From Hormiphora californensis (lineage: Eukaryota > Animalia > Ctenophora): a stretch of 64,000 bases of DNA. The position numbers and the translations under genes were made by a program. Below, piece after piece: positions 4,309 through 33,800 of this stretch. The notes below the pieces were generated by a model. That model had not been told where the DNA came from. It worked only from the letters and a program-made list of their open reading frames with translations, and made no database searches. Every line of letters begins with the position of its first letter. The stretch's first letter is position 1. Location of the stretch: assembly GCA_020137815.1 (NCBI GenBank), contig CM035357.1, positions 1,612,001-1,676,000 on the forward strand, written 5' to 3'.

Positions 4309-7300
4309 TTATTTTGATTGTTTCATTTTCGTTTCCAACTTTTCTAAAGCTGTTTGGTAGTTTTCCGAAAGTGTTTCAATCACAGATTCGGGTATGGTCA
4401 TCTCTCTGATCTCCTCTCCTCCCGCCTTCCTCAGCATCTGTCTGAAGTGATGCATCTGAAGGGAGATGTAGTGTGAGAATGAGTTTTAGGATACTTTCTT
4501 GACAGACTAGCTTCTGCATCACCATATATTTGAAGGAAATAATTACCAAATAAAAGGGGGCGGGGGAAATCGTTTGACCAGGAACCGACCGAATCAGGAA
4601 ATACTGGTCCCTGATTGGCTGATAACCAGTCACGTGATCTAAATAACGAGTTCTGATTGGTTGTTTACTTGTTTCGGTCGGTTCCTGGTCGAGTCTTACC
4701 TCTTCAAATCTGCAGAGTGTATAGGCGTGTCCCTCTCTCCCTGCACGTGCTGTTCTGCCCACTCTGTGTACGTAGGTCTGTACGTGGGAGGGTGTGTCGT
4801 AATTGACTACGTGAGACACACTCGCTATATCCATACCCCGGGCCAGGGAGTCTGAGCATACCAACCTGGAGAAGAGGGGAGGGGTGTTATTGTAGAATAT
4901 TAATAGAGGGCGGGAGCCGGGAGAAGGGGTGACTGCCATTATAATAGAGGGGAGGAGTGGAGGGTGTTATTATCTGTCAGAGCATTGGCCTGACCCTATT
5001 CTCATTTCTCTCAAATAAGCGGAGCGCGCGAGAACTGTGGTCAGAGCATTGGCCTGACAGGTTATTATAATCATCAAGGGGGTTGTGTATAATACACTTT
5101 CTCCGACACGGGACTCAAGCACGGGGGTGCAGGTAGCCTACAGAAGGCGGGTGTGACAGTGATTTCTTTTTGTGTGCATGAAAATGCAGAATCGGTTAGG
5201 GACCGTTCCCTCCTCTCAATGGCTTGTTGACAAAGCCCTAACCAAGCCAGCGGAGGGGGATTAAGAGCTCAAACGGGCATACGATGGTGTGGTATGACTT
5301 TAGGTGAAAGTGAAGTGTCTTGTCCAAGTGGAAATCCGGGTTCCTTATGTACTGCGGAAGGGGTCTTGTTAGCCAATAGGAGGGCACCGGGTGGCGCGCT
5401 CTCATTGGTTCCTTCAGCATCCAATAGGAGAACAGGAAACAGGAAAACGGATAGTTTCGGAAAATTTCGGGATAGTTTGTGACAAATAACTTTGCGGGGG
5501 TACCCAATTAGAAGTCAGTCATTTTCAAAGCATCACATCAAGTTCCGGTCACACATCTCCAACTGTAGAGCCTACATCCACAGGCTCCAGAGCCAGGGCT
5601 TAGATCCAGGTAGGCTTGAACAATCTATTCCAGAACAAGGGAGTCCAATTAGGCTACCCCTGAGAGTCCACGGGGGCCGCCGGGCTTAATAATCATCAAG
5701 GGGGTTGTGTATAATACACTTTCTCCGACACGGGACTCAAGCACGGGGGTGCAGGTAGCCTACAGAAGGCGGTGTTATTATAGAGGGCGGGAGGGGTAGG
5801 AGGGAGGGAGGTGTTATAGATGTTGATGGGTGTTTCACTTAGCCAAACTGGGACATGTACATAGTCTTTTTGGGTTTCCGGCATAAGGTGTGAAACATGA
5901 GTGAAAAATTGGGAAATAGCTGTGAAATGATGTCTTACAAATTAGTTTTGTTTGAAGCAAAGTCCCTAACAACCCTGCTCCGTTGCGGTAGGGAGAGGGA
6001 TGACGAGAATTCGGAAACTGTGATATCAGGAAACTCCTCCGCTAAAAGTGCCAACCTATGGGCTGTATCTATACTGCCAGTGAAACAGAGGACGTGTTTC
6101 AATTGTTGTACCAGGTGGATTAGGACCAGGGCTTTATCTTCCAACTTGCACCTTACAACGTGTTGCTGGAGGAAGGGGGTGGAGTTAGAAAGGTAGAAAA
6201 AGAGAGGGGACCCGGGAAATTTTACACTAACATTCAATTCAGATCAAATATAAAACCTAGAAATTGGTGGTATGTATCGCATATACTATCTGGAATCCTG
6301 GAGACACAGAACTCACAAACAGACAAACAAACAGACAAACTCACCTGTAGAGTGCTTGGTAGGGTGTACTTTCCTCCACAATTATACATGACAGGTCTGT
6401 GCAGCTGGAGAGGGGCCAACTTTGCTGGGTTATGTGTGATTGTAGCAGAGAATAATAGTTTCTGGAGAGGTAGAGGGGGACATCGGAGGGAGGCGAGAGA
6501 TGTGGAGGAGCTTGTGTAGCGTTTAGTGTTTACTATTGGTTGGGCACCTGGGGGAGGTAATAATACTGATTAGAGAGGTGTACACTGATAGGGACCACTG
6601 ACTAACCAAGTAGTTCTGGTGAGAGCTCAGTAATGAGTGGTAGCTATAGAGCATTTAATAACAGGAACCGACCGAAACAAGTAAACAACCAATCAGAACT
6701 CGTTATTTAGGTCACGTGACTGGTTATCAGCCAATCAGGGACCAGTATTTCCTGATTCGGTCGGTTCCTGTTTAACAGCCTTCCCGTACTATCGATAGTT
6801 TAGAGATAACCACCATACCTGAGCTACCGGCGACTGGTGAACTAGCAACCCTCTCCAACATCATTGGCAACCAATCCTGGTAGGCCTGATTTAGCAGGGA
6901 ATCGACTTCATCGATAACGAGATACCGCAACTGTGATAGTGAGAGAGCGGGGGTGTCTCTAAGATGGTTAACTAGGCGTCCTGGGGTTGCTATAGCAACG
7001 TGTACAAGACAAGTTCCTGATTCTGTGTAGAGAGCTTTCTGTTCTTGGGCCACACTGTTCTTGCCCGATAGTAGGGCTACCTGCGATAGAAGGGGTTTGT
7101 TTTCAGATGTTGTGAGACGTTGGGGATACATCTGTAATTACTAAAGTAAACACTCATAGGTGATTAGTCTAATTAAGTACTAAGTCTACACAGAAAGAAG
7201 GGTCGAGTAGTTCTTGAATTTGAAAAATATTGCATCTCGTAAAAGGACAAATCGACAGATTGCGACAAATCAAACTCACGTGCGCGCACACAAGGGGTAC

Positions 7301-16479: not shown

Positions 16480-18463
16480 CTAACTTCTCTTCTGCACAAT
16501 AACCGCATTCAGCAGCCCCGCCTGAGATATGGACTGGGATTCCTCCGCCAGTACTTTGTTAGGGAAGGTCGTCATAAGACTGTAGGTTGGGGGGCCGTCT
16601 GGTCTACTCAGGTTGATGAAACCCCTGATATCTCCCACTGTGTGTGAGTGGTTGAACTTGCTGACCAACCTTGTTCCATCAGCTAGACGGATCTGAGAGG
16701 GGGAGGGAGTTGGGTGGTTAGGGAGTTGGGTGGTTAGGGAGTTGGGTGGTTAGACGGATCTGAGAGGGGGAGGGAGTTGGGTGGTTAGGGAGTTGGGTGG
16801 TTAGATTGATCTGAGAGGGGGAGGGGGGAGTTAGAGGGGGTTAGAGGGGGAGGGAGTTGGGTGGTTAGAGGGGGAGGGAGTTAGAGGGGGAGGGAGTTGG
16901 GTGGTTAGAGGGGGAGGGAGTTAGAGGGGGAGGGAGTTGGGTGGTTAGAGGGGGAGGGAGTTTGGTGGTTAGAGGGGGAGGGAGTTGGGTGGTTAGAGGA
17001 GAATTACTGCATAGAACACTAAAATGTAATTACCTCAACAATTTAAAATTTATATATACCCTATTAAGTCTAGTGGATGCAGGTTTCCACTAGACTATAT
17101 TCCCCTGCCAGTACCTGAATTGACGTAGTAGGTTGACTCTCGTCAAGGTTAACGCTAGGTTTAGTGGCGGTGGGAGGGTTGGTGGGGGCGACATTGGGAG
17201 CGGCAACATGTGGAGCGGGGCTACCCAATCTATGTCCACTCCCTGAAATAGAACCTCATTAAAAGACAGTAATCACGACAATTAATTGGAATTGGACGAT
17301 AAGTAGTTTTGTAGAAACCCGCAATATTGGGAATCCTAATGAGGTAGTACACAACAATAACAAGGATTCTATGTTGCACCTGAGAAAGGTCTGAGGACGG
17401 GTTTGGGTGGCACAAAGTCCTCCCCTCGTTTATCTACCATGTTTACGTGGACTTCAGCAGCACCCCGCTGTAACTCTCTGGGGATCTCTCTGGATGGATG
17501 GGAGAGTTATAACTTTCAATTCCATACTAAACCGAAACAAATCGAAAGATAATATACTAGGATGAGACTTATAATTCCATATAGTAGACTCCGAAAAACC
17601 CCCCATTACATACCCCCGCATGACGGACCCAAGGAATTCCTTGTTAGTTGGATCATCAATTTTCCTAATCGGACCATCGTCAACACTAAACCCATTCTTC
17701 CAAAATGTTATTGTCCTCTCTGTGTCCTCTGGTTCCTGTTGTTGGTTGTTAACTGCCGGCACACTTCCAGAGGAGGCAGAGGGTTCGTTACCCAGACGGA
17801 AGCCGCTCCCAGCAAAAGTTGTGTCTTTCTTCTTACTTGCAGCTTGTCCTGGGTCTCCTACAACCTCGGCACCGTGTCTGGATAATTGGGCAAAATGATT
17901 AGAAAATAACACAAACGAATAGTGACAGGAAATCAACTAATTGATCTTTACTCACTTTTTCGCTGAATCGAAAACATCCTGGACTCCTATCCTGTCCTTT
18001 TTAGGACCCTTAATAATCTGTCCACTGTGCTCGCTACCCCCTGCATAGTAACCCGGACCCTCTTCCTCTTCGTCCGATCCATCGTCCCTGCCCAATGAGG
18101 CTAGGGTTCCAAACCTGTGGAGTTAAAACATATTGGCACCATGTTAATTACTATTGTATACTCCACTGTTGTATACTCCACCAAGCATTTAGTTAATTGT
18201 AAAAATTCAAGCAAAGGTTCGTACCGGGATACGGGTGCAGTTGGTCGGGAGGGAGCACTGTCGCCAGTTGCAACAGGTGCAGTAGCAATCGGGGCTGCAG
18301 GAGGTAACTCCTCTACCTCATCAGTCATTTCCGGTTCAGCATAGAAACTGTTGAGGGCACTTTCCAACTGCCAGTTTCCTGAGCCAAGGAAAAACTCAGC
18401 TCGCTCTGCATCGCACCCGGCGATGCTGCAAAACTGGCTGATCAGCTCGTCACGATCGGACAT
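16480..18463 (-). CDS. NSFL1C: p47 / NSFL1 cofactor (UBA-SEP-UBX p97 adaptor); exons 18463-18225, 18114-17956, 17877-17614, 17489-17380, 17242-17115, 16692-16480
   Basis: UBA-like [45 protein letters not shown] domain [58 protein letters not shown]. Confidence 0.92.
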
Positions 18464-21428: not shown

Positions 21429-21893
21429 ACTTGGGCCAAATCAAATTAACGCTTCATCCCTAAATGTTTCAAAGGATTTAAACAGTGTAGTAACCATGAT
21501 TTGAAGAGTGTTAAGCGAAAATCACAGGACAGAAAAAGACATCGCAAAACAGAAACACAAACTGTGGAAAAAAGTAAAATGTGCAAGTTTGCAACTCAAA
21601 AAGTAAGTGCGCGTCGCTAAATGCAGCGTTTAATTAATAAAATTTAGCGCGTTACAGTTTTATTTCAAATATGCAGCGTAACATTGGTGACGAAGATGGA
21701 CGAGAAGTTGCCATGAAAATTTTACAGCTTTTTTCTTAACTTTTCCCACCGTGTTTTTGTTTTCTGTGGCGCCTGCCGCCTCTCTTTCAACCTCCCTAGG
21801 TCCTTCGATAGTTACTAACATACCATAATGTTTTTAGGATATAATGTAATGAAGGGATCTTCGTTTGTCGTGCGATGATCAGCCCACAATTGG

Positions 21894-24800
21894 ATGGAAG
21901 CACCTCTCCCTCGACCTAAAAAAGCGAAGAGCAAAAAACGAAAAGAACGAACAAGTCAGAATGATTCCCTCCCGGCTGTTGAAGACAAGATATTAAATGC
22001 CCCCTCAGCATCTCGTTTGTTGGAAGAGTTTGTACCCAGCGACCAAGATGTCATCAGTTACAATGATAGCACTGAGGACCAGCCATCATGTTCGTCCGAC
22101 CAAACTCCCCTAAATAACCTTGACATTAACTCCTCTCTGAGGGACAGTCTGCTTAGAAAAAGCCAGTTAAATGTTCTGGAGTGTTCGTCAGAACAGACAA
22201 TTGTGCCAGAACAAGAGGGCGAGGGTGTCGGAGGTAGTATTCTTGAACGACACTCCGAATCAGAGTTCGAAACTGCTCATCTTGAACAACCACGAGAAGC
22301 AGAGATAGACCAACTGTACCCAAGTTTAGATGAGGGATTTTATCAGTCTCGACTCCGATCACCCACTCCGGACGACGTCGAGAAACTCTCCCTCCAGATC
22401 TCAGAGGCCCAACTTGATGGAATCGCCCCGGTACAGACGGGAAACACCCCCGAGCAGACCAGCTGGGTTCCTCCCTCTGCTCCCTCTGAATTTGAAGAGG
22501 AGCATGATACGGTATCCCTGATCAGCGAACACAGTACCCTTCACCATCTCTCACTCCAGACACTGGTATACGATGATCAGTATGAACAGAAGTTACAGAA
22601 CTGTTACCAGTGTATATCTCCCTCTCAGTCAGTCCCCAGTTTTGAGGAACTGAACAAGGAACTGCTGATAAACGAGCTGAAAACATTTTACCACAATCCC
22701 CAACTGGCCACCAACGAGGAATTCCTGAAGGATTTCATTGGATTGTGCGAGAACCCTAACCATGATCTCCACAACCTGTTGCTAAGGTATCAAGCTGCGA
22801 GGCAGAGTTTCCTAGATCACAATCGGACAATTGAGGAGCACATTTCCAAGTACCATCGATCCCGGGAGACAATTTGGACATTTTCCAAGGATAAACGGAT
22901 AGAACACGGCTTCTGTGCCGATCACATCAAAGTCACACACTCAGAATCATGTTCCAAGGCTGTGTGTCATCCAGAGACACAGAAAGAGGTATCTGACAGC
23001 TTGGAATCAATTCAAGAGAACTGTGCAGCACCCCTGGCTCTCTCCCAGTACAATTGGAAGATAGCCCACCACCAGGTGGAGCAATACATGGTAAAACTAA
23101 TCCACCAGAGCCCACCCCTCTACTCAGAACAAGTGACGTCATTCGTTCCAGGCACCCAGGTGCCATGGGAGCTTGTCCATCAGACTTCAAACCTCCGGAT
23201 ATCCATATCAATCCTGTTCCACTTCAAGCGACAGACATTGAGTGATGATGTTTTTGCTGGTGATATTGACCGATGGTTGTCAATTCTCATTGGCTACCTT
23301 CTCCGAACTGCGACCCTCCTAGACCACCGGTTTATCTTAAATCACCTACTCAGATGTCCAACAGGTTTCTCATTCTGGGGCAGTAAATTCCTTCAGTTTG
23401 TGTGGGCTGAATACCCCGTGTGCTCTCTCTCCTCAAACCCCGTTATCGATCACTTCTTCCTGCTTTATGTTACACTCATATCACCACTATCGGAGCGGGA
23501 CAACATGCTGGCCAATTACGAGGCGCCCGTCCAGGATAGTGACCCCGCTGAGTGGTCCCTGTTGGACGAGCTTGGAGAGGTGGAAGTCGCGGGGAAGCAG
23601 CTACTGGAACGGGATTATCTCGAGCTCCTGGGCCAGTTTAACTTCGGATTGTTCTTCAGGGAGCTCCTCAGACACCCCACACCAGAGGATTTCATGAAGG
23701 GACGACAGGATATGTCAGAGCGAGATGTAATGATGTTGTTTAGTATGTGTCTTCAGTGCATAACCCATATTAAGGAGGCCTTTACCTACCTTGATTTTAC
23801 ACGATACAGAAACTTTTGCCAGCGCAATGCCCGGATTATGACCACTCTCGTCATGTTCGTCTCCGATTATTACTACTTTTTTGAGTGGTACGGTGGGAGA
23901 TTTGAACGATTTTCAATGACACTGGACACGGACAAGAACAAGTTGCTGACAATGCACAACTTTGTTTTTGAGGAGGGGTTCCGATGTCTCGCGGAGACCA
24001 GTAACGCCTCTCTCTGGCAATTCCTAACCGAACTCCCCTACCAACGAGTTTCAATAAAAGTTCTGTGGAAGCTGTACTGTTTCCTTCACCAGATCAACCC
24101 CGACAGGTGCATCAGGAGCTCGATACTCCGGGATGGTTCCCCTTATGAGATCGTCACAAAACTATACAAATCAGCCAGGTTTCAGAGGAGGTTGGAGAGT
24201 CTATCTGACGAGGACTGTACCTACATGGTTAACATCTTCAGCCGAATGGCTCTCTCCCGCGAACCAAACGACAGTTTTGTCAGTGTCATAGCCCTGGATA
24301 TATATCATATTGGGGTTACTGCACCGGCTGATAAACAGTCCACTGACCATGCTAGTAAAGTTTGTCTCAGCAGTATTATTGATCACAGTCCTGCGGTGGT
24401 GTCAGCGATACTGGTTAATATGGAGAAACCTACACTGAAAGATCTACCAAATAATCTTAGGTTAGTGCTGATTGTACTTGGCTCTTCTTCTAAAACATAA
24501 TCGAATGTAAATGTAGGAGAGGTTTGTAGTTAGGAAATTAGATAGAGGGACAATAAAAACAAGGGATTAAGGGATAATGTGGTCAAGTGGTTAAGTGGTG
24601 CAGGTGGTTATACCAGCTGGGTCACACCGTTGCCATAGTAACACATGATTTCTGTTCAGGTTATTCAAAGGTATTTCATTACAACAGTGGTTGCCAAGGG
24701 ATGAAGATTTTAGCCTTCTGATAACGTGGCTCCAAACAGCAGCTCTAACGTCCCTTACCAATCAACTTAGTCGCATCATTCTCAAAGGTATGGCAAGTAA

Positions 24801-27800
24801 ATGACCAAATTATTCTTTCACCGATGACAGATAGAAGACGATCTTTAATGGTACATCCGAATTCCGAAAGGATGATCCGGCACTATGATGATGAACAAAC
24901 CTATACTACTAATTCAATGATATTATTTATTACACTCTTTCCCCACGATCAGGATTAAATTGGGGTAGCCACGATCAGCGTCTGTTTATCCCTGCTGAAT
25001 ATCATCGAAAGATTGCAGTTATGATCGTTGCTGCCCACTCCTACCACCTTCCTGACCGACCTGGTTATCTTATCCACTCTGCAGTACCTGATTTTACCAA
25101 ACATGTCAGCAATGTTGAAAAGGTAAGAGAGCTATTACATGTCAGCAATGTTGAAAAGGTAAGAGAGCCGATTATTACATTTAACTCTGAACTACAAACA
25201 CAAACACGAGTGTTTTAACAGAAAACAATTGTTTCAAACTCTGAACTATGTAATCATTGTTTTATAGTTAACTGTTAACAAACATAGAATGCTGGCCCTG
25301 GGGGATTGAATGCCCCGCGAACCGACCGAAACAAGTAAACAACCGATCAGAACTCGTTATTTAGGTCACGTGACTGGTTATCAGCCAATCAGGGACCAGT
25401 ATTTCCTGATTCGGTCGGTTCCTGTAATGCCCCCTTTTGTTCCCTGGAAAACAATCCCGTTATCTATATTATAAAGCAGAGAACCTTGCAAGACAATTGG
25501 TTTTTTGGGGGGTTTTAGGGCTTGCACGTGGAAAATTGACGTGTTGTTAGGGGTGTTTGGTGGGGTTTGGGGCGTGCACGTGCGTGTGTAAAGGTTTTAT
25601 AAATTTGGGGGATAATAGCTCTTTGGAAAGAGCTTGACATTATCTTTCTAATGAGCCTTGGAATTTTGAAATTGGTTGAGAAATGACCGAGTTATGAGGG
25701 AAATGGTGATAATCAAACCTGGCTATTAAAGATTCAGAAGGAAAGGTGCTGGTTTGCATTATAACGTGTACAGCTTTTATAATGGCCGATCGTTAATAGA
25801 AAAAAACATTAATGCAGATTCTAGAACCATCAAGATACCACGCGAAAACTATCCACAGTTTTCTTGTTCTATGGAAAGGTTGTGTTCTAACCCTCCTTCT
25901 GTAAAAGAAGGGCGGAACACAACTTTGAATATATATTTAATTGATAAAGCATTGTTGTATGTGATGGGGGGGATGTGGTGTGTTGTGGCTCCAGGCAGCT
26001 ATCGTCACAACTTTTTTGCTCCTCTATATCTCCCAAATATAGTATGTTATAAAGGACAGGACCACAATTGATTATAGTACGCTAAGCGTAGCTTTTCATT
26101 TCCCTGCGCCAGGACGCTGTAGCGGCTAGTTGAGTTCCATCCGCAGTTCGCCATTCACAGCAGACGCATAAATATGCGTCCCGCATTCAATAATGATAAT
26201 GCACTTCTATTTTAAGCCTAATGATTCAAGAATTCAATAACCTTTGTGTCTTAACCGATTTCTTTGACTCTAGAGTTCGATATTTTGCAAAATGTTCCTT
26301 CTCGTCCTCCTCCTTCCTAATGTGCTCCAATCGACCATGATTGATGGTGTTCAGCCGGATATACCAAACTATATAGCCTTCTACCCCATCACTAAACAAG
26401 AGTGCGTACTAAACTGTTATCTTGATGAGGAGTGCAAAGCGGTCTATTTCTACCCCGGGAACGGGACCTGCTTTGCCTACGATCGTATCAGTGTTACTTA
26501 CACCGACACCGAGAAAGATAAAGATGAACCTGCTGAAATGATGATGACGGTAGTTGATATGGATGCCGGATTGTTTGCCTCAATGCCCCTGGAGCTGGGT
26601 GTGGTCGATATACCCACTCCGGGGGTCAGTGTCCTTATCATGGACAGGTACGGATATTGCTTCACGTTCACACCACAAGGCACTGCCGAGTTTGTGACGA
26701 CAGACTGCAGCTTTTACTCGAAATTTTCCGTTGTGGCAACTGAAAATGAGAGGATTATAACTCTCCGGATAAAGAATGTTAGGTGTTTATACTTTGACAC
26801 TGATGGACCGAAACTGACGAAGGATTGTGAGGATGAAAGGGCACGTCTACCAACCACTCAGATTCTAATTAACCATACCTCAGTTGATTTAACCAACTAC
26901 CAAATGTACCAGTATCGCGAGTACACAGTATGCCAAACCTCCCAGGTCATGGACTACCTTCCAAACGCTTTTGTCCTACGGAAGAATGAAAATCCTTTGC
27001 TAAACCCAGGCTGGAAATTAGAAGCCTTGTGCAGGAAGGGCTTCCGGCTGAAGAGTGATCCAAGGGCCAACTTCTTCTACATAGAATGCCAGGAAAATGG
27101 AGAGTGGTTATACAATGACGTGTGTGTAGCGATAGATACCGATGCAGATGTCAAACATGATTATGTTGAGGAACCTGGGGAAACAGTTAACTGTACGTGT
27201 GAGTGTGGGATCCTTGGACAGCTGGCCACCATTGACAAGATCCTCGTTACTGTCTTCCTCGTCTCATCCTACATTATTGTCGCCGTGGCAGCGAGAATTC
27301 AACCCAGGAATGGGTGAAAATTGTTTAGTGCAAAGTTGCGTTGCTAAACGACTGTGCTCCTTCATCAACACAATTATTGTCGCCGTGGCAGCGAGGATTC
27401 AACCCAGGAATGGGTGAACATTGGATCGTGTGGTACGATCCACAACCAGCAAGATATCAGCTTAAGGTTTTCTGAAAGGGAGTGCGGTAAAAACTGGTTA
27501 AAACTGTTTACGGCTGTCGGCTTATTTGTTGGTACTTTGTCGATTATATTTCGAAGTTTGCAGAGCAAAAAGAATTATGGAACACGGAAATTTCAATCAA
27601 TGTATTTAAAACTGTTACGCTAAGGATGATATTATATCGCAACTTGCTCTACTTGCCTACTTTCAAGTGAATAACGAAAGAGTGCGATTTTATCAGTAAT
27701 TGTTATTGTTTAAATGGTGATGCTTTGTTCTAGTTTACAAGCCGATCGTTTCTTTTGTCCTTAGTCCTAGGTAAACTAAATCAAATCAACTAGTAACTAC

Positions 27801-30800
27801 CAATACATCGTTATCCCTCCCCTAACTTTCTATCTCTCTTCACTTTCTATTTCCCCTAACTTTCTATCTCTCTTCACTTTCTATCTCTCTTCACTTTTTA
27901 TCTCTTTTCAGAACACGTTTGCCCGGTGGTGCTGGGAGGTCCTTCTCCTGCTGTGTCTTCACAAGACTGACCTGGCAGAACACGACTCCCGTTCCAGGAA
28001 AATAAACAAACAAATGAGGTGAGAACTGAGTGATGAGTGGTTGATTAGAGCTCAATGACATTCCTTGATGAGTGGGTGATTATTTAATATTTGCATTACC
28101 TCACCATGCAATGGTATCATTGCCCCATTTTCGATTGGAATGATCATATTTATTCGCGATCACCCGGCAAAGCTCTGCAAAGCTTGACAAAGCTTGACAA
28201 CTCTTTGCAAAGAGCTTTTCAAAGCTCCATAAATCTGACCAACCACATATTACATAATACAGTTGGACCCCGATTTAACGGCACCCTCGGGGGAAAGGGA
28301 TTTTGTCCGTTAAATCGGGGTGTCCGATAAATCGGGGCCCGACTGTATATAGGATTATAATAAGGGAAACCAGAGTATGAGAGTAATTTTTGGGAAAAAT
28401 AACTAAAGGTGAATTTTTACTGCAACCTATGAACATTCACAAAACGGAACATTATAAATATCTCACGTTGAAACCTTTTTCGACAACAAAAAGTCCAGGG
28501 TAAAATCACTCTGAATGTGAAAACCTTTATCCTTTTTAGAACTAATGCAATTCTGTTTGAATCTTTTTGAAGAAAATCGTCCAGGAACCGACCGAAACAA
28601 GTAAACAACCAATCAAAACTCGTTATTTAGGTCACGTGACTGGTTATCAGCCAATCAGGGACCAGTATTTCCTGATTCGGTCGGTTCCTGCTGTCTACCC
28701 CTTGTGTTCATACACTTCAATCTCCGTGAACTCAAGACAGTCCCCCGTAGATTTATAAAACCAGAGTCCAAATCCACTTTTACCACCGCAATCCAGCCAG
28801 TACGTCTGATCCTCCACTGATTCTCCATCCCGCACATGGATGGTGTCAACAGTGCACGATGCCATTGAGTTATAGCCTTCATCCAACATCGCGTACACTA
28901 TCACCCCATCCAATCGAGCCCTGGAATTGAATAATTAGTAAATAATTGTATAATTAGTAACCATCGAGATTTACTCTTTGAAACACCCTGAATATCTTGT
29001 TATGTATACGAAACAGAGTCTAGCTAGGCAATGAATATCACAGTTCTTGAGTTGGTTGAGTCAAGAAATCAATTATACCTGTTCCAGTTGAATTTCCCAT
29101 TAATGACTTTGATTTTTCCAATGCTATACCGTCCATCGAAAAAGTACTTGAACCACTGATCTTGACCACTACACTCAGTGTGACTTGCAGTATTTAGATC
29201 TCCGTCAACCGCATTCTCAGCTGAAAAGATTACACCACGGGTTACAAAGTACAGTTATACAGTACAGTTATACAGTACAGTTTTATGGAAACAGTTGGTT
29301 TAGGCACACGATGCAGGGCGGTTGAGGGTTCAGATCAAAATGGCAAAGAACTAACCTGCAAGATCATAGTACTGGGAAGACATAGAAACTCTAGATGCCC
29401 TCAAGAACTTTCCTTGTTGGACATCATTATTATCTCCACAAGTGTTGCAGGTTTTCCTACAGTTGTCCCTCATAAACTGAAGGAACTCCGCGGAATCACA
29501 ATAACTTGCCCACGTGGGACATTTCTCACTGTATTCTTCATTGTCATAGCAATCACTAATCGAGTCATCATGATCATCTCCATGACACGCGTTACAACTT
29601 TTCTTACAGTCCACTAACATGGTTGCCGCTTCACTCTCACACTGCCCAGCCGCTGCCCGGTGATCACATCCTGGCATTTTGTTCACACAGTCAGGATCAT
29701 CAATCTCCTCCTCCTTACATAGACCACAAGTCTTCTTACAGTTGTCCCTCATGAATTGGACGTAGTTCTCGGCGTCACAATAACTCTCCCACGTGGGGCA
29801 GTTCTCACGATACTCTGCACTATCATCACAGACGCCACCATCATCATCACCATCATATTCATCATCATAGAGATCTTTTCCAATCAACCAAACCCCTTCA
29901 GTAGCAAAATGACAGATGTTCCGGCCGCGTTTAATGAAAATGAACCCCTTGTCCCCCCAGTCGGAGCCCCATGAGTTCTTTACCTCCCAGGAATACTGGT
30001 CATACCCAACCACTGCTACTGCGTGCCACACGCCACTTTCCTCTACCCAGCAACCATCGTAGTGGCCTGACCTTAGGAGGGGGGAGGTTGTTGTTCTAAC
30101 CCTCCTTTACATTTTTATAAAGAGCGTCGAGCAAGGCAAGAGGGATGAGTTATACGTGGGGGGGGGGGTGGCTGAACTTCAGTCACCACCCCCTGTTGAC
30201 AGTGACACGTGAAACGGGAGGGCAGGGAAACACAGAATTATGAATACATAATCATGATAATGCAATGATTCTTGTTAAAGAGCGTCGAGCAATGCAAAAG
30301 GGATGAGTTATACGTGGGGGGGGGGGGGGGCTGAACTTCACCCCCTATACGTGCAGCCGACTACCTATGTTTTTTAGTAACCACCGACCCTGAAACTGGT
30401 GTAACTACCGCAACTCAACCCTAAAACAACTCACCTGTAGGCATAGAAATCGTCTTCAATTCGTAAAGAACTGGTAACCGGTCCATCCTGAAGAGCGTTA
30501 ACCATTAAATTATCTTGTTCACTGACACTCACTGTTGGCTCATAAAACCATTTGATCTCGTTAATCTTTACTTCACTCTCAAACACGTTCTTGTGGGACG
30601 TGTAACTACAGTATCGGTCCTGTCCTGAGAGTTAGAAACAGTGGTAAAAGCGAGGAAATCTCCAATATAAGATAATATATAGAACAGACTAGAAGATCTG
30701 AATTTAGCGAAACCAATTTGAGTCCTATATTATTACCTGCATACTGAGCACTACTTGCAGCCCAAGCATAGTTTGTTTTGTTGACCCACCTGATGAAGAA

Positions 30801-33800
30801 AAATAGTACATTAATACATACATTAATACACCATAATACATACATTAATACCCCAGATCTAGTTATAAATTAACAAGAGATAAAAGTTTATCAGTCAATA
30901 CATTGGTTTCTTACGCATAAACAGAAGAAGAAACCCCCCGTTGCAATCAACACATTGATTTCTTACGCATAAACAGAAGAAGAAACACCCCCGTTAGTCA
31001 ATACATTGATTTCTTACGCATAAACAGAAGAAGAAACACCCCCGTTAGTCAATACATTGATTTCTTACGCATAAACAGAAGAAGAAACACCCCCGTTAGT
31101 CAATACATTGATTTCTTACGCATAAACAGAAGAAGAAACTCCCCCCCCCCCCGTTGCAGTCAATACATTGATTTCTTACGCATAAACAGAAGAGGAAACA
31201 CCCCCGTTAGTCAATACATTGATTTCTTACGCATAAACAGAAGAAGAAACACCCCCGTTAGTCAATACATTGATTTCTTACGCATAAACAGAAGAAGAAA
31301 CACCCCCGTTAGTCAATACATTGATTTCTTACGCATAAACAGAAGAAGAAACTCCCCCCCCCGTTGCAGTCAATACATTGATTTCTTACGCATAAACAGA
31401 AGAAGAAACACCCCCGTTGCAGCCATCTTTTCCAGGGTAATCAACTTCGAAGGTACAATCAAGGTAGAGCTGTTCGGCAAGTTGTAACTTGTTGCCAGTG
31501 GCAACCCTGTATATGAATTCCAGGGGCACGTTCGCTGCAAATGCCCAGCAACTACCACATTTGCCTGAAATTTTGGGGAAATCTCTAATGTCTACTAGGG
31601 GGTTTGTTTCTGGCATTTCAATGGCCGTAGTAACAGCTGCTACAGTTGCCGTAGCAACAGTTGCTAAAACTCTCACCTTGGTTTTTGACGTCTGTCAACA
31701 ATGATCTCCAAGTCCGTGCTGCGGGTGCTCCAAGACCACCTGAACTCAAACCCTGGACAGTTATTTTCCTCATTCCTTGAGTGTTCGCTCTACTGAAATT
31801 CCTCTCTGCCCCAAGAAACATTGACCGCTCATCTTTTGTCATCATTGTGAAGGAATTAACTCCCATTTTATACCCGGAGTTATATTTGTTGTGATCCTTT
31901 ATCATGTTGTAGTTTTTCACAAAGGCCCGCTGTCTTATTGCCGCTTGGATTGGATTAGCCCGTAGTCCAGGTTCCTCGATATCATTGTATGCAGCCAAAT
32001 AAAGGTTGTAAGCCTCACTGACACTGTCAGCATTCTCGATCTGGGCTTTGATGTCCGCGGATTTTGCAGTTGCGGACAGTCGTAAGCCCTCTCCAGGAGA
32101 GAGGAGATTGCAAAGCAAACAAAGCAGTAACATTTTTTACATTAGCAAGCCGAATCTTTGTTTTATATTTTGTAACTCAATTATGGTTGTGGAAATTTTA
32201 TATCGTCCTCTGACTGCTGGACATATATTCTGCATAATTCAAAAGCAAAGAATACCTCAGTGATAGTTCAGAAATGTCCTATTATATAAACATGATACCA
32301 TAAATAATAGGATCGGGTTCTTACTTTGCCAAAGAACTCGCAATTTACTTTTCCAAAGAACTCGCAAAACGGTACTTTCTTCAGACCAATTTCAAGGAAT
32401 TATTGCAAGAAAAAAGTTATCGTGCATGGGAAGAATTTTATACTTCTTACTTAGTGGCGGGCTGAAAAGATATATTAATACATACAATCCACATTTCCGA
32501 GACTGCCCTGCGGCCTGCTATGTGACTACCAAATCAAACGTGGCAATTCCTGAATACTTCATAATATATTTTTACTCATAGTCTAGTTTTGACTACAATT
32601 TCTAACAATCCATCTCATTTCCATCTCAGGAAGCAGAAGAGTGAGGGTTGCATGTCCAATATGTCCAGCCCTGAACCGATAGTCCGACAGAATAGTGACG
32701 GTGCAGGGAGCTCTCCATCTTGCCCATCTACCTCATCATGTGTCTCACCTTCTTTCGTGGGACAGTGGGGGAAGTTCCCCTACAAGATGCGTAAAGAGGT
32801 AATTACAATTTCGATAAATTTAGTTTCTATCCGTTTTGATTGTTGAATGAGTTTAGTTTGTTAATTGATTGTTTTTCAGCCTGGTCTGACATCACTTTGT
32901 GAGGCACTAAGAACGAATGGTGAGATGGCAGCCTACGTCGCTCTATCTATAACTTCCATTGGCCACTCAACTATTGACTTTCAGGTGAGATATGGAGATA
33001 TTATAGTGGGAGAGATATAGTGGGAGAGATATAGTGGGGGGTGAGATAGATAATAGTTGGGTGAGAGAGATTCATAGCATCTTCGAAGTCCGTGACCCAG
33101 TGCAACTCTTATCATGTTTCTAAAAAACTTTAGTAATTGCTTAGATATCTTTATGAATTTATTAAATAGATCTGCCCTCTTACGTCCGTGACTAAGAGGA
33201 GTCGAACTTTTCTAAGATAAAAACAAACAGATATATTTATAAAAAACAACCAAGCTTGATATTTATTGGGGGGTACGTCACCTTTTTTTTTGCCCACTGC
33301 CCACATTATTCTTAAATTTTGAATTTGCCCACATGGGCAAAAGTGGGCAAAAGTAGGCAAAAGTAGGCAAAAAATTTAAATCCATAAAAAATATATGCTA
33401 TCAACCAGGTAATCGTCTGTGACAAAGGTTTTTCACCACCAATGTCCTCCTAGAGGTCCCCCTTATCGATTCCAACCGATAATTTATTTGCTCAGGGTTG
33501 ATAAGGCTCCATATCCAACTGAGAAAATGGGCAAAATATGTTGGCAAAATTAGGAAAATTGGTCATTTTAGGCACGTTTCTCACATGGTTGGAGTGGAAA
33601 ATTTTTCTGGTTTTTCTGGGACCCCATTGGAGTACAATGCAAGTGGAAAACCTTTGTTATGTATCAGTTCCCTAAATAGCCCCAAAATGACGAAAAATCA
33701 CTGGCCTTTGCCTAATTTTGCCAAATTTTTTTGCCCACTTTTGTCCAGTCGGACATGGAGCCTTATCAACCCTAAGTCATAAGTAAGTACATTAATTATC

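What the first reader, a model, noticed from the sequence alone, without database searches (positions are those of the whole stretch)
28695..32133. Unusual architecture: cathepsin L-like protease + 3 ShKT + F5/8-C/fucolectin-like domain
Seen: one phase-consistent 7-exon model joins a signal peptide, I29 prodomain, intact catalytic Q/C/H/N, three ShKT domains with acidic linkers and a lectin-like C-terminus. The ORF track splits this into unrelated pieces. Established: ShKT domains usually accompany astacins, tyrosinases, peroxidases or CAP proteins, and C1A proteases rarely have long C-terminal extensions. Inference: a secreted glycan-targeted protease for digestion, prey handling or defence.
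Basis: partly seen in the sequence, partly recalled or inferred. Interest (0 to 1): 0.72.

Follow-up and report, generated by a model that had tools for sequence, protein, structure and literature searches.

The report
Cathepsin-L-like protease with ShK-lectin tail
A seven-exon gene model encodes a cathepsin-L-like protease precursor joined to three ShK domains and a lectin-like end domain; a few unnamed marine sequences carry the same arrangement as one reading frame, and the tail would likely tether a secreted protease to its target, making this a new variant of known modular proteases.

Summary
On the minus strand, 32133-28695, seven exons with GT-AG introns join in phase to a 652-residue protein. 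It has a hydrophobic N-terminus, an I29 propeptide, a papain-family peptidase with Gln/Cys/His/Asn in place, three ShK domains with acidic linkers, and a C-terminal beta-sandwich domain of the F5/8-C / F-type-lectin kind.

No RNA from this species was found. The disputed exon 5-6-7 joins are supported in other ways:
- Three protein clusters (P0008, P0158, P0010) carry peptidase, ShK and the same tail as one uninterrupted ORF.
- The joined model aligns to them without gaps across both junctions.
- Variants in exons 6-7 are mostly synonymous, 9 of 14.

The nearest named relatives are truncated Pleurobrachia bachei models, and more distant family members are Mnemiopsis leidyi proteins. The gene therefore belongs to a ctenophore-type family of ShK-tailed C1A peptidases.

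C1A plus ShK is not rare: 17 of the 70 best representatives have it. The lectin tail is rare. The canonical fucose-binding motif is absent, so glycan targeting is a prediction. Verdict: a real, undescribed variant of a known kind, of moderate interest.

The parts
31677..32133 (-). Exon 1: start codon, hydrophobic N-terminus (aa 1-16, 32086-32133), I29 propeptide (aa 62-102, 31828-31950), start of the mature peptidase with Gln152 (31678-31680)
   Evidence: the signal peptide is read by eye only
31390..31564 (-). Exon 2: peptidase segment with catalytic Cys158 (31548-31550)
   Evidence: Pfam Peptidase_C1 1.9e-11
30737..30789 (-). Exon 3 (53 nt), peptidase
   Evidence: continuous alignment to P0006 and P0008 across both of its junctions
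30435..30624 (-). Exon 4, variable middle of the peptidase domain
   Evidence: no Pfam hit on its own; aligned to P0006/P0008
29356..30071 (-). Exon 5. It holds the peptidase C-terminal part with His308 (30023-30025) and Asn324 (29975-29977). It also holds ShK1 (29717-29830), ShK2 (29585-29689) and ShK3 (29438-29551), the acidic linkers, and the first strand of the tail domain (29356-29413).
29351..29353 (-). TAG reached if intron 5 is not removed. The product would be 531 aa, ending inside the tail domain.
29079..29220 (-). Exon 6: tail domain, with the cation-type motif AVDGD (29198-29212)
   Evidence: Pfam F5_F8_type_C_2 1.9e-4 on this exon alone; 5 of 6 listed variants are synonymous
28695..28920 (-). 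Exon 7: rest of the tail domain and the stop codon (28695-28697)
   Evidence: 4 of 8 listed variants are synonymous
30893..31418 (-). Ten tandem copies of a 51-bp unit in intron 2. Each copy repeats the last bases of exon 2 plus the 5' splice site.
28582..28690 (.). 109-bp element with 23-nt inverted ends, starting 5 nt after the stop codon (3' UTR or flank)
   Evidence: very high word depth

Best explanation
A seven-exon minus-strand gene model, backed by uninterrupted homologues but not yet by RNA from this species, encodes a 652-residue cathepsin-L-like cysteine protease precursor followed by three ShK domains and a C-terminal F-type-lectin-like beta-sandwich. The product is predicted to be secreted, and its tail would likely hold the active protease on a carbohydrate or other extracellular ligand.

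Shown:
- the exon structure;
- the domains;
- intact catalytic residues;
- conservation of the whole architecture in other sequences;
- membership in a clade of ShK-tailed C1A peptidases that includes Pleurobrachia and Mnemiopsis proteins.

Inferred:
- secretion as a zymogen;
- removal of the I29 propeptide to activate the enzyme;
- the disulfide-rich ShK modules with poly-Asp/Glu linkers acting as a stalk;
- the tail acting as a Ca-dependent binding module whose ligand is probably not bound in the canonical fucose mode;
- a role in extracellular digestion or surface defence, by analogy with ShKT-astacins.
For: Gene model: all introns are GT-AG and in phase.

Domains: I29, Peptidase_C1 and 3x ShK. 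His and Asn align with cathepsins H, F and K and with papain. Cys and Gln sit in the family signature.

Tail joined to the protease:
- P0008 (814 aa on a 2,799-nt contig) has I29 + Peptidase_C1 + 4 ShK + F5_F8_type_C_2, 31.1 bits against a cut-off of 27.8.
- P0158 (797 aa) has the same four families.
- P0010 (333 aa, partial) has the peptidase end + 2 ShK + the tail.
- The tail of the joined model matches P0010 at 4e-48 and P0008 at 1e-20 as single stretches.
- The alignments run without gaps over aa 530|531 and 577|578.

Selection, from the variants listed: exons 6-7 have 9 synonymous of 14, where about 0.2 is expected (binomial 4e-4, or 8e-3 if 0.3 is expected). All exons have 40 of 60. Three of the four exonic indel events listed keep the frame and lie in linkers.

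Tail fold:
- A profile of three tails hits the F-lectin FBP32 (3cqo) at 7.9e-6 and the S. pneumoniae fucose module 2j1r at 0.005.
- The AF2 model of the P0010 tail has pLDDT 68.6. It matches CBM32 and F-type lectin modules at TM about 0.7.
- The Atlas nearest clusters are F5_F8_type_C_2 / F5_F8_type_C.

Family: in a peptidase-domain tree the window is sister to the P. bachei model P0006 (SH-aLRT 100). Both lie inside a clade (98) that holds the Mnemiopsis-labelled and the lectin-tailed proteins.

Analogy: ShKT-astacins are said to be mostly expressed in barrier epithelia or the digestive tract (passages of PMC9848320). P0013 is astacin + ShK + F5_F8_type_C.
Against: - No transcript evidence. 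All holders laid are genomic contigs that run through introns, and the one guessed RNA run holds none of the gene.
- The nearest named relative, P0006, ends seven residues after the exon-5 equivalent. This could mean a form without the tail, or a truncated model.
- The fucose motif HX24RXDX4(R/K) is absent from the window's tail and from P0010, P0008 and P0158.
- The fold rests on a relative 58% identical in the tail, modelled at only moderate confidence from 3 sequences.
- Pfam on the window's own tail exons is below the cut-off, because the joined protein could not be submitted.
- One contig of another sample has a 7-nt deletion at the His308 codon. This is a frameshifted allele or paralogue.
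- The peptidase tree needs two changes for the lectin label, and the deep forks are unresolved.
- The signal peptide was not scored by any program.
Confidence: 0.6

Rival explanations
1. The mRNA ends after exon 5, either by intron 5 retention or by reading to the TAG at 29351-29353. The product would be a protease + 3 ShK protein without the lectin-like tail, and exons 6-7 would be a relic or belong to something else.
For: The P. bachei model P0006 stops seven residues after the exon-5 equivalent. No RNA shows the 29356->29220 join.
Against: - The first strand of the tail domain is encoded at the end of exon 5 and continues without a gap into exon 6 when aligned to P0010 and P0008.
- Exons 6 and 7 have no usable start codon.
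- Their variants are mostly synonymous, 9 of 14.
- Three other clusters encode the fused form in one ORF.
- Both exons are present at about 90% identity in contigs of a second organism.
Confidence: 0.1
2. It is an intracellular (lysosomal or granule) cathepsin. The C-terminal ShK-lectin extension would serve only for sorting or folding and would be cut off on maturation, as recalled for the granulin extension of plant RD21-type peptidases and the C-terminal extension of trypanosomatid cathepsin L.
For: The I29-type propeptide and the cathepsin-like catalytic domain are typical of lysosomal enzymes. The exposed acidic linkers are plausible cleavage sites.
Against: ShK and F5/8-C-type domains are extracellular, disulfide-rich modules. 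The nearest analogues, ShKT-astacins, are described as secreted enzymes of barrier and digestive epithelia (passages of PMC9848320). Nothing tested here separates the two readings.
Confidence: 0.15
3. It is a polyprotein. The protease part would be co-delivered with, or would release, free ShK-type peptides that act as channel blockers or antimicrobial peptides.
For: The best solved-structure match of ShK1 is aurelin, a 40-residue jellyfish peptide (2lg4, E 0.0015). The three ShK units are separated by acidic linkers.
Against: There are no dibasic or other recognisable processing sites in the linkers (sequence). ShK arrays attached to enzymes are common and are not known to be released. The match to aurelin is weak. 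A channel-blocking dyad was not tested.
Confidence: 0.07
4. The tail is a true F-type (fucose-binding) lectin domain, and the enzyme is aimed at fucosylated glycans.
For: The best sequence-profile matches are fucolectins: FBP32, the S. pneumoniae fucose module and the lectinolysin lectin domain. The cation motif AVDGD is present. The fold matches.
Against: The fucose motif is absent in all four tails examined. In the window the spacing after the His is 28, not 24, and Lys/Asn replace Arg/Asp. CBM32 modules that bind galactose or GalNAc score as well as the fucose modules by fold.
Confidence: 0.1

Closest known systems
Cathepsin L-like papain-family peptidases (MEROPS C1A) with an I29 propeptide
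   Same: The I29 propeptide, the Peptidase_C1 domain, the Gln/Cys/His/Asn residues and the conserved Cys pairs are all present. A cluster mate of P0008 is labelled 'cathepsin L' by its source.
   Different: About 300 extra C-terminal residues: three ShK domains and a lectin-like domain. The ERFNIN-type propeptide motif (recalled) has Gln in place of the first Glu.
ShK-tailed C1A peptidases of ctenophores (unnamed; Mnemiopsis leidyi 'hypothetical proteins' KAL5258651.1 and KAL5262145.1, and the Pleurobrachia bachei models P0005/P0006)
   Same: They fall in the same clade in the peptidase tree (SH-aLRT 98) and share the peptidase followed by ShK arrays.
   Different: Their tails differ. P0007, P0011, P0037 and P0151 carry Ephrin_rec_like / TNFR-like Cys-rich repeats, and P0063 carries kringles. 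Only the clusters of P0008, P0158 and P0010 share the lectin-like tail.
ShKT-astacins (metallopeptidases with C-terminal ShKT arrays)
   Same: The layout is the same: signal, prodomain, catalytic domain, ShK array, then further binding modules. P0013 is astacin + ShK + F5_F8_type_C. They are described as enzymes of barrier and digestive epithelia (passages of PMC9848320).
   Different: The catalytic domain is an unrelated zinc metallopeptidase. This is a functional analogue, not a relative.
F-type lectin domain (fucolectins: FBP32, the S. pneumoniae fucose module, the lectinolysin lectin domain) and CBM32 / F5/8 type C modules
   Same: The jelly-roll fold matches at TM about 0.7. The profile hits FBP32 at 7.9e-6. 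The cation motif of the form h-h-D-G-x is present as AVDGD.
   Different: The fucose motif HX24RXDX4(R/K) is absent, there is no adjacent Cys-Cys pair in that loop, and the domain is attached to a protease. The F-type lectin review does not contain 'ctenophor', 'peptidase' or 'protease' in its main text (term search of PMC5712786).

Membership tests
Peptidase C1A (papain family), cathepsin L-like | Match to the Peptidase_C1 profile above the curated cut-off | tested here: met
   Exon 2 scores 44.9 bits and exon 5 scores 38.1 bits, against a cut-off of 20.7
Peptidase C1A (papain family), cathepsin L-like | Catalytic Cys and His, plus the Gln of the oxyanion hole and the Asn that orients the His | tested here: met
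   Gln152 and Cys158 sit in the Q-x2-C-G-S-C-W signature. His308 and Asn324 align with those of cathepsin H and papain.
Peptidase C1A (papain family), cathepsin L-like | I29 propeptide (cathepsin L-like rather than B-like) | tested here: met
   Inhibitor_I29 at 35.7 bits against a cut-off of 24.4. The ERFNIN-type spacing is present with Gln for the first Glu (the motif is recalled).
Peptidase C1A (papain family), cathepsin L-like | Endopeptidase activity | not testable with these tools
   Needs a recombinant enzyme
ShKT / ShK domain | Profile match and the six-Cys pattern | tested here: met
   PF01549 at 77.4 bits in three stretches. Three C...C...C...C-x3-C-x2-C units.
ShKT / ShK domain | Channel-blocking Lys-Tyr dyad of the toxin members (recalled) | not tested
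   No alignment to a channel-blocking ShK toxin was made. The only solved matches were aurelin and a nematode metalloproteinase ShK domain.
F5/8 type C / NedA-like galactose-binding domain (PF00754, PF22633) | Profile match above the curated cut-off | tested here: inconclusive
   The window's exon 6 alone scores 22.4 bits against 27.8, and exon 7 alone gives nothing. The joined tail could not be submitted. The homologue P0008 scores 31.1 bits against 27.8 and P0010 scores 23.6 bits.
F-type lectin domain (FTLD) | F-type jelly-roll fold | tested here: met
   Tested on the relative P0010, 58% identical in the tail. The model has pLDDT 68.6. Foldseek TM is 0.68-0.71 to 2j1r, 3le0 and 3cqo, and as good to CBM32 modules.
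F-type lectin domain (FTLD) | Cation-binding motif h-h-D-G-x (as quoted in PMC5712786) | tested here: met
   AVDGD at aa 534-538, and present in P0010, P0008 and P0158
F-type lectin domain (FTLD) | Fucose-binding motif HX24RXDX4(R/K) (as quoted in PMC5712786) | tested here: not met
   No match in the window model, P0010, P0008 or P0158. The window has H-x28-K-x-N-x4-R.
ShKT-astacin | Astacin (M12A) catalytic domain | tested here: not met
   No astacin match. The catalytic domain is Peptidase_C1.

The most novel reading that the evidence does not exclude
Ctenophores built their own family of secreted modular cysteine proteases, a counterpart of the ShKT-astacins of other animals. In this family a cathepsin-L core and a ShK stalk carry interchangeable C-terminal targeting modules: F-type-lectin-like, ephrin-receptor-like or kringle. 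The lectin-like module described here has a rebuilt binding loop and recognises a ligand other than fucose on prey, mucus or microbes. The gene would therefore mark a ctenophore-specific extracellular digestion or defence system, and it would extend F-type-lectin-like domains to Ctenophora.
Probability: 0.3. Interest if true: 0.6.

Novelty: new variant of a known kind. Interest (0 to 1): 0.45.

Why it matters
- It corrects what an ORF-based or truncated annotation would miss. The closest named models, from Pleurobrachia bachei, are partial and lack the tail.
- It documents a conserved but unnamed architecture: I29, C1A, ShK repeats and an F5/8-C / F-type-lectin-like domain. It places this architecture in a clade of ShK-tailed cysteine peptidases that includes ctenophore proteins.
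- It gives a concrete candidate for extracellular proteolysis in an early-branching animal lineage.
- The lectin-like domain keeps the cation motif but has a changed sugar loop, which makes its ligand directly testable.
- No paper describing this architecture was found in the searches. These covered listings and abstracts, plus passages of PMC4848628, PMC5712786, PMC6278862 and PMC9848320.

Tried and rejected
- **Whole-genome search:** no genome is held for this window.
- **RNA evidence:** no RNA holder is listed. X1-X4 and X5-X7 are genomic contigs that run through introns, so they say nothing on splicing. The guessed RNA run X9 laid only on the repeat element and a low-complexity stretch.
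- **Single-exon searches of the tail:**
  - PDB with exon 6 or exon 7 alone gave only non-significant matches.
  - The Atlas with exon 7 alone gave a weak lead to F5_F8_type_C at rank 16.
- **Word-index searches:**
  - 'Longer' with exon 5 found only distant C1+ShK proteins.
  - The two searches with the tails of P0008 and P0010 added only P0158.
- **DNA loci of relatives:** two scans of metagenome contigs, with P0155 and with the tail alignment A1, found none. It was therefore not shown directly that the contigs of P0008-type proteins are cDNA.
- **Earlier findings of this scan:** none.
- **Paralogues in the window:** none by tblastn with the joined model.
- **Pfam census:** only the first 70 of the 150 listed representatives were scanned. 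The other 80 were screened only with phmmer against the window's own parts.
- **Tree:**
  - Left out were rows with fewer than 150 aligned peptidase residues (among them P0005 and P0010) and nine near-identical cluster members (P0157, P0160, P0161, P0162, P0165-P0168, P0170).
  - The 'shk'/'none' labels come from phmmer with the window's ShK region and under-call ShK. P0151 and P0085 have ShK by Pfam.
- **Considered and rejected:**
  - The plus-strand ORFs 30921-31487 and 29225-29617 are translations of the tandem array and of the antisense of exon 5.
  - An alternative donor within the intron-2 array is ruled out because each copy brings an in-frame TAA right after the exon end.


Full report
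**1. What is in the sequence**

The minus strand between 32133 and 28695 holds seven exons: 32133-31677, 31564-31390, 30789-30737, 30624-30435, 30071-29356, 29220-29079 and 28920-28695. Every intron begins with GT and ends with AG. The exons join in phase to a 1959-nt CDS of 652 codons (my first try was off by one base at two junctions). The ATG is preceded by an in-frame TAA. tblastn with the joined model finds no second copy in the window.

**2. Domains**

Joined sequence could not be handed to the family tools, so each exon was scanned by reference:
- Exon 1: Inhibitor_I29, 1.1e-8.
- Exons 2 and 5: Peptidase_C1, 1.9e-11 and 2.3e-9.
- Exon 5: ShK, 1.2e-21 in three stretches.
- Exon 6 (46 aa alone): F5_F8_type_C_2, 1.9e-4, below the cut-off.
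- Exons 4 and 7: nothing.

The peptidase end aligns with cathepsins H, F and K and with papain, with His308 and Asn324 in register. Gln152 and Cys158 sit in the family signature. The three ShK units are complete six-Cys patterns separated by Asp/Glu-rich linkers. The best solved match of ShK1 is the jellyfish peptide aurelin, at E 0.0015. The N-terminus is short and hydrophobic. I read it as a signal peptide by eye and by its alignment with the clearer N-terminus of P0008. No predictor was run.

**3. Is the lectin-like tail part of the same protein?**

No RNA evidence could be had. The run search listed no RNA holder. The runs laid are genomic contigs that cover introns. The one guessed RNA run of the same species label holds none of the gene. 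Four other lines of evidence bear on the question.

(a) *Fused homologues.* A full HMMER scan with exon 5 gave 1585 hits at E<=0.001, of which the best 150 were listed. I screened these 150, together with the four proteins, against the joined tail.
- Two match it strongly as single stretches: P0010 at 4e-48 and P0008 at 1e-20.
- P0006 matches only the 24 residues encoded at the end of exon 5.
- P0008 is 814 aa on a 2,799-nt contig and carries I29, Peptidase_C1, four ShK and F5_F8_type_C_2 above the curated cut-off, 31.1 against 27.8 bits.
- Its cluster mates are 807 aa on 2,544 nt, labelled 'cathepsin L' by the source, and 815 aa on 2,788 nt.
- P0158 (797 aa) has the same four families. A mate of 821 aa sits on 2,867 nt.
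- P0010 (333 aa, partial, on a 1,358-nt contig) has the peptidase end, two ShK and the tail.
- These contigs leave no room for introns of the size seen here (1,480 nt in total). I infer that they derive from mRNA, but this was not shown, because both scans for their DNA found nothing.

(b) *Gap-free junctions.* The joined model aligns to P0010 and P0008 without a gap across aa 530|531 (exon 5/6) and 577|578 (exon 6/7). The first strand of the tail domain is encoded by the last about 20 codons of exon 5. A transcript stopping at the TAG 29351-29353 would therefore end inside a domain.

(c) *No independent start.* The open frames around exons 6 and 7 have no usable start codon.

(d) *Variation.* Among the variants that searches list, 9 of 14 in exons 6-7 are synonymous, where about 0.2 is expected from codon structure. 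The binomial probability is 4e-4, or 8e-3 if 0.3 is assumed. For all exons the figure is 40 of 60. The lists are the tools' 'best supported' subsets, and some contigs at 88-95% likeness may come from paralogues or from another species. Of the four exonic indel events listed, three keep the frame and lie in the acidic linkers: a net 3 nt at 29417-29420, 3 nt at 29557, and 3 or 6 nt at 29838. The fourth is a 7-nt deletion at the His308 codon in one contig of another sample.

Against the fused form: the P. bachei model P0006 ends seven residues after the exon-5 equivalent. It also lacks the peptidase end and ShK3, so it looks like an imperfect model. A tail-less isoform is not excluded.

**4. What the tail is**

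- A profile of the three tails (alignment A1) hits the striped-bass F-lectin FBP32 at 7.9e-6, the S. pneumoniae fucose-binding module at 0.005 and the lectinolysin lectin domain at 0.014.
- An AlphaFold2 model of the P0010 tail has mean pLDDT 68.6 and pTM 0.65 from only three sequences.
- That model matches CBM32 modules, F-type lectin modules and discoidin-type domains at TM about 0.6-0.7. 146 matches have E<=0.001.
- The Atlas places the P0010 tail among F5_F8_type_C_2 / F5_F8_type_C clusters.
- The F-type lectin review defines a fucose motif HX24RXDX4(R/K) and a cation motif h-h-D-G-x (passages of PMC5712786). The cation motif is present as AVDGD in all four tails. The fucose motif is present in none. 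The window has H-x28-K-x-N-x4-R.

The tail is therefore a galactose-binding-like / F-type-lectin-like beta-sandwich with a changed sugar loop. I do not file it as a fucolectin.

**5. Family and organism**

- The two best hits are EukProt models of the ctenophore Pleurobrachia bachei: P0005 at 80% and P0006 at 71% by HMMER.
- More distant family members share 90% clusters with Mnemiopsis leidyi 'hypothetical proteins'.
- In a quick ML tree of 53 peptidase domains, the window is sister to P0006 (SH-aLRT 100). Both lie in a clade (98) of 29 rows that holds nearly all ShK-tailed rows, the Mnemiopsis-labelled rows and the P0008/P0158 group. Deeper forks are open, and the lectin label needs two changes.
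- Of the 70 best representatives scanned with Pfam, 17 are Peptidase_C1 + ShK and 12 are Astacin + ShK. One of the latter, P0013, also has F5_F8_type_C.
- Other C1+ShK members end in Ephrin_rec_like/TNFR-like repeats or kringles.

ShK tails on C1A peptidases are thus common in sequence data. The lectin-like tail is limited to three clusters among everything fetched: 9 of 177 proteins.

**6. How it most likely works (inferred)**

- The protein would be secreted as a zymogen.
- The I29 propeptide would block the active site until it is removed.
- The cathepsin-L-like domain would then cleave extracellular proteins.
- The ShK units and acidic linkers would form a disulfide-stabilised stalk.
- The terminal beta-sandwich, probably cation-dependent, would bind a carbohydrate or other ligand and so concentrate the enzyme on food, mucus or microbial surfaces.

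The closest working analogy is the ShKT-astacins, which are said to be expressed mostly in barrier epithelia or the digestive tract (passages of PMC9848320). ShK-domain proteins are noted among ctenophore tentacle candidates (passages of PMC6278862), but nothing there concerns this gene.

**7. Novelty**

The literature searches found no description of a C1A + ShK + F5/8-C/F-type-lectin architecture (I saw listings and abstracts, plus passages of four papers). Supplements were not opened. The sequences themselves are already in public collections, unnamed or labelled 'cathepsin L'. I rate this as a new variant of a known kind, of moderate interest. It is a real, conserved, probably lineage-restricted modular protease, not a new kind of system.

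Noticed in passing
window 30893-31418 (intron 2): Ten tandem copies of a 51-bp unit (91% matches) repeat the last bases of exon 2 together with its 5' splice site, so the intron carries about ten spare donor sites. Each copy brings an in-frame TAA just after the exon end. Contigs of the runs laid do not cover 31040-31313, so the copy number may be collapsed or variable.
   Followed up: partly
window 28582-28690, and 33 matches of its 15-nt end across the window: A 109-bp element with 23-nt inverted ends (87% complementary) sits 5 nt after the stop codon. Its terminal 15-mer occurs 33 times in the window where 0 are expected, mostly as pairs about 95-110 bp apart. Word depth in the runs is in the millions. 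It looks like a very abundant miniature inverted-repeat element.
   Followed up: partly
window 30092-30354 (intron 4) and 28985-29121 (intron 6): Further high-copy repeats: word depth is hundreds to thousands of times that of the exons, with many contig joints to other places. The intron 4 stretch holds two copies of a poly-C-containing unit.
   Followed up: no
window 29838, 29557, 29417-29420; 30025: The length variants in the acidic linkers all keep the frame: +3 or +6 nt in the poly-Asp linker, -3 nt, and a net -3 nt. One contig of another sample has a 7-nt deletion at the catalytic His codon. This would be a frameshifted allele or paralogue.
   Followed up: partly
window 26274-27317 (+), 21879-24500 (+), 17454-17936 (-), 4376-4966 (-): Neighbouring open frames: one of 347 aa with weak PAN_3 and Sushi matches, one of 873 aa with no Pfam match, a SEP-domain exon and a Helicase_C exon. 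None is related to the protease gene.
   Followed up: no
proteins P0013, P0063, P0007/P0011/P0037/P0151: Other modular forms appear among the hits: astacin + ShK + F5_F8_type_C (P0013), C1 + kringle + ShK (P0063), and C1 + ShK + Ephrin_rec_like/TNFR-like repeats. These suggest free swapping of terminal modules on ShK-tailed proteases.
   Followed up: partly
proteins P0005 and P0006 (Pleurobrachia bachei models): Both closest named models look incomplete. P0005 starts inside the peptidase and diverges after ShK1. P0006 lacks the peptidase end and ShK3 and stops just after the exon-5 equivalent.
   Followed up: partly
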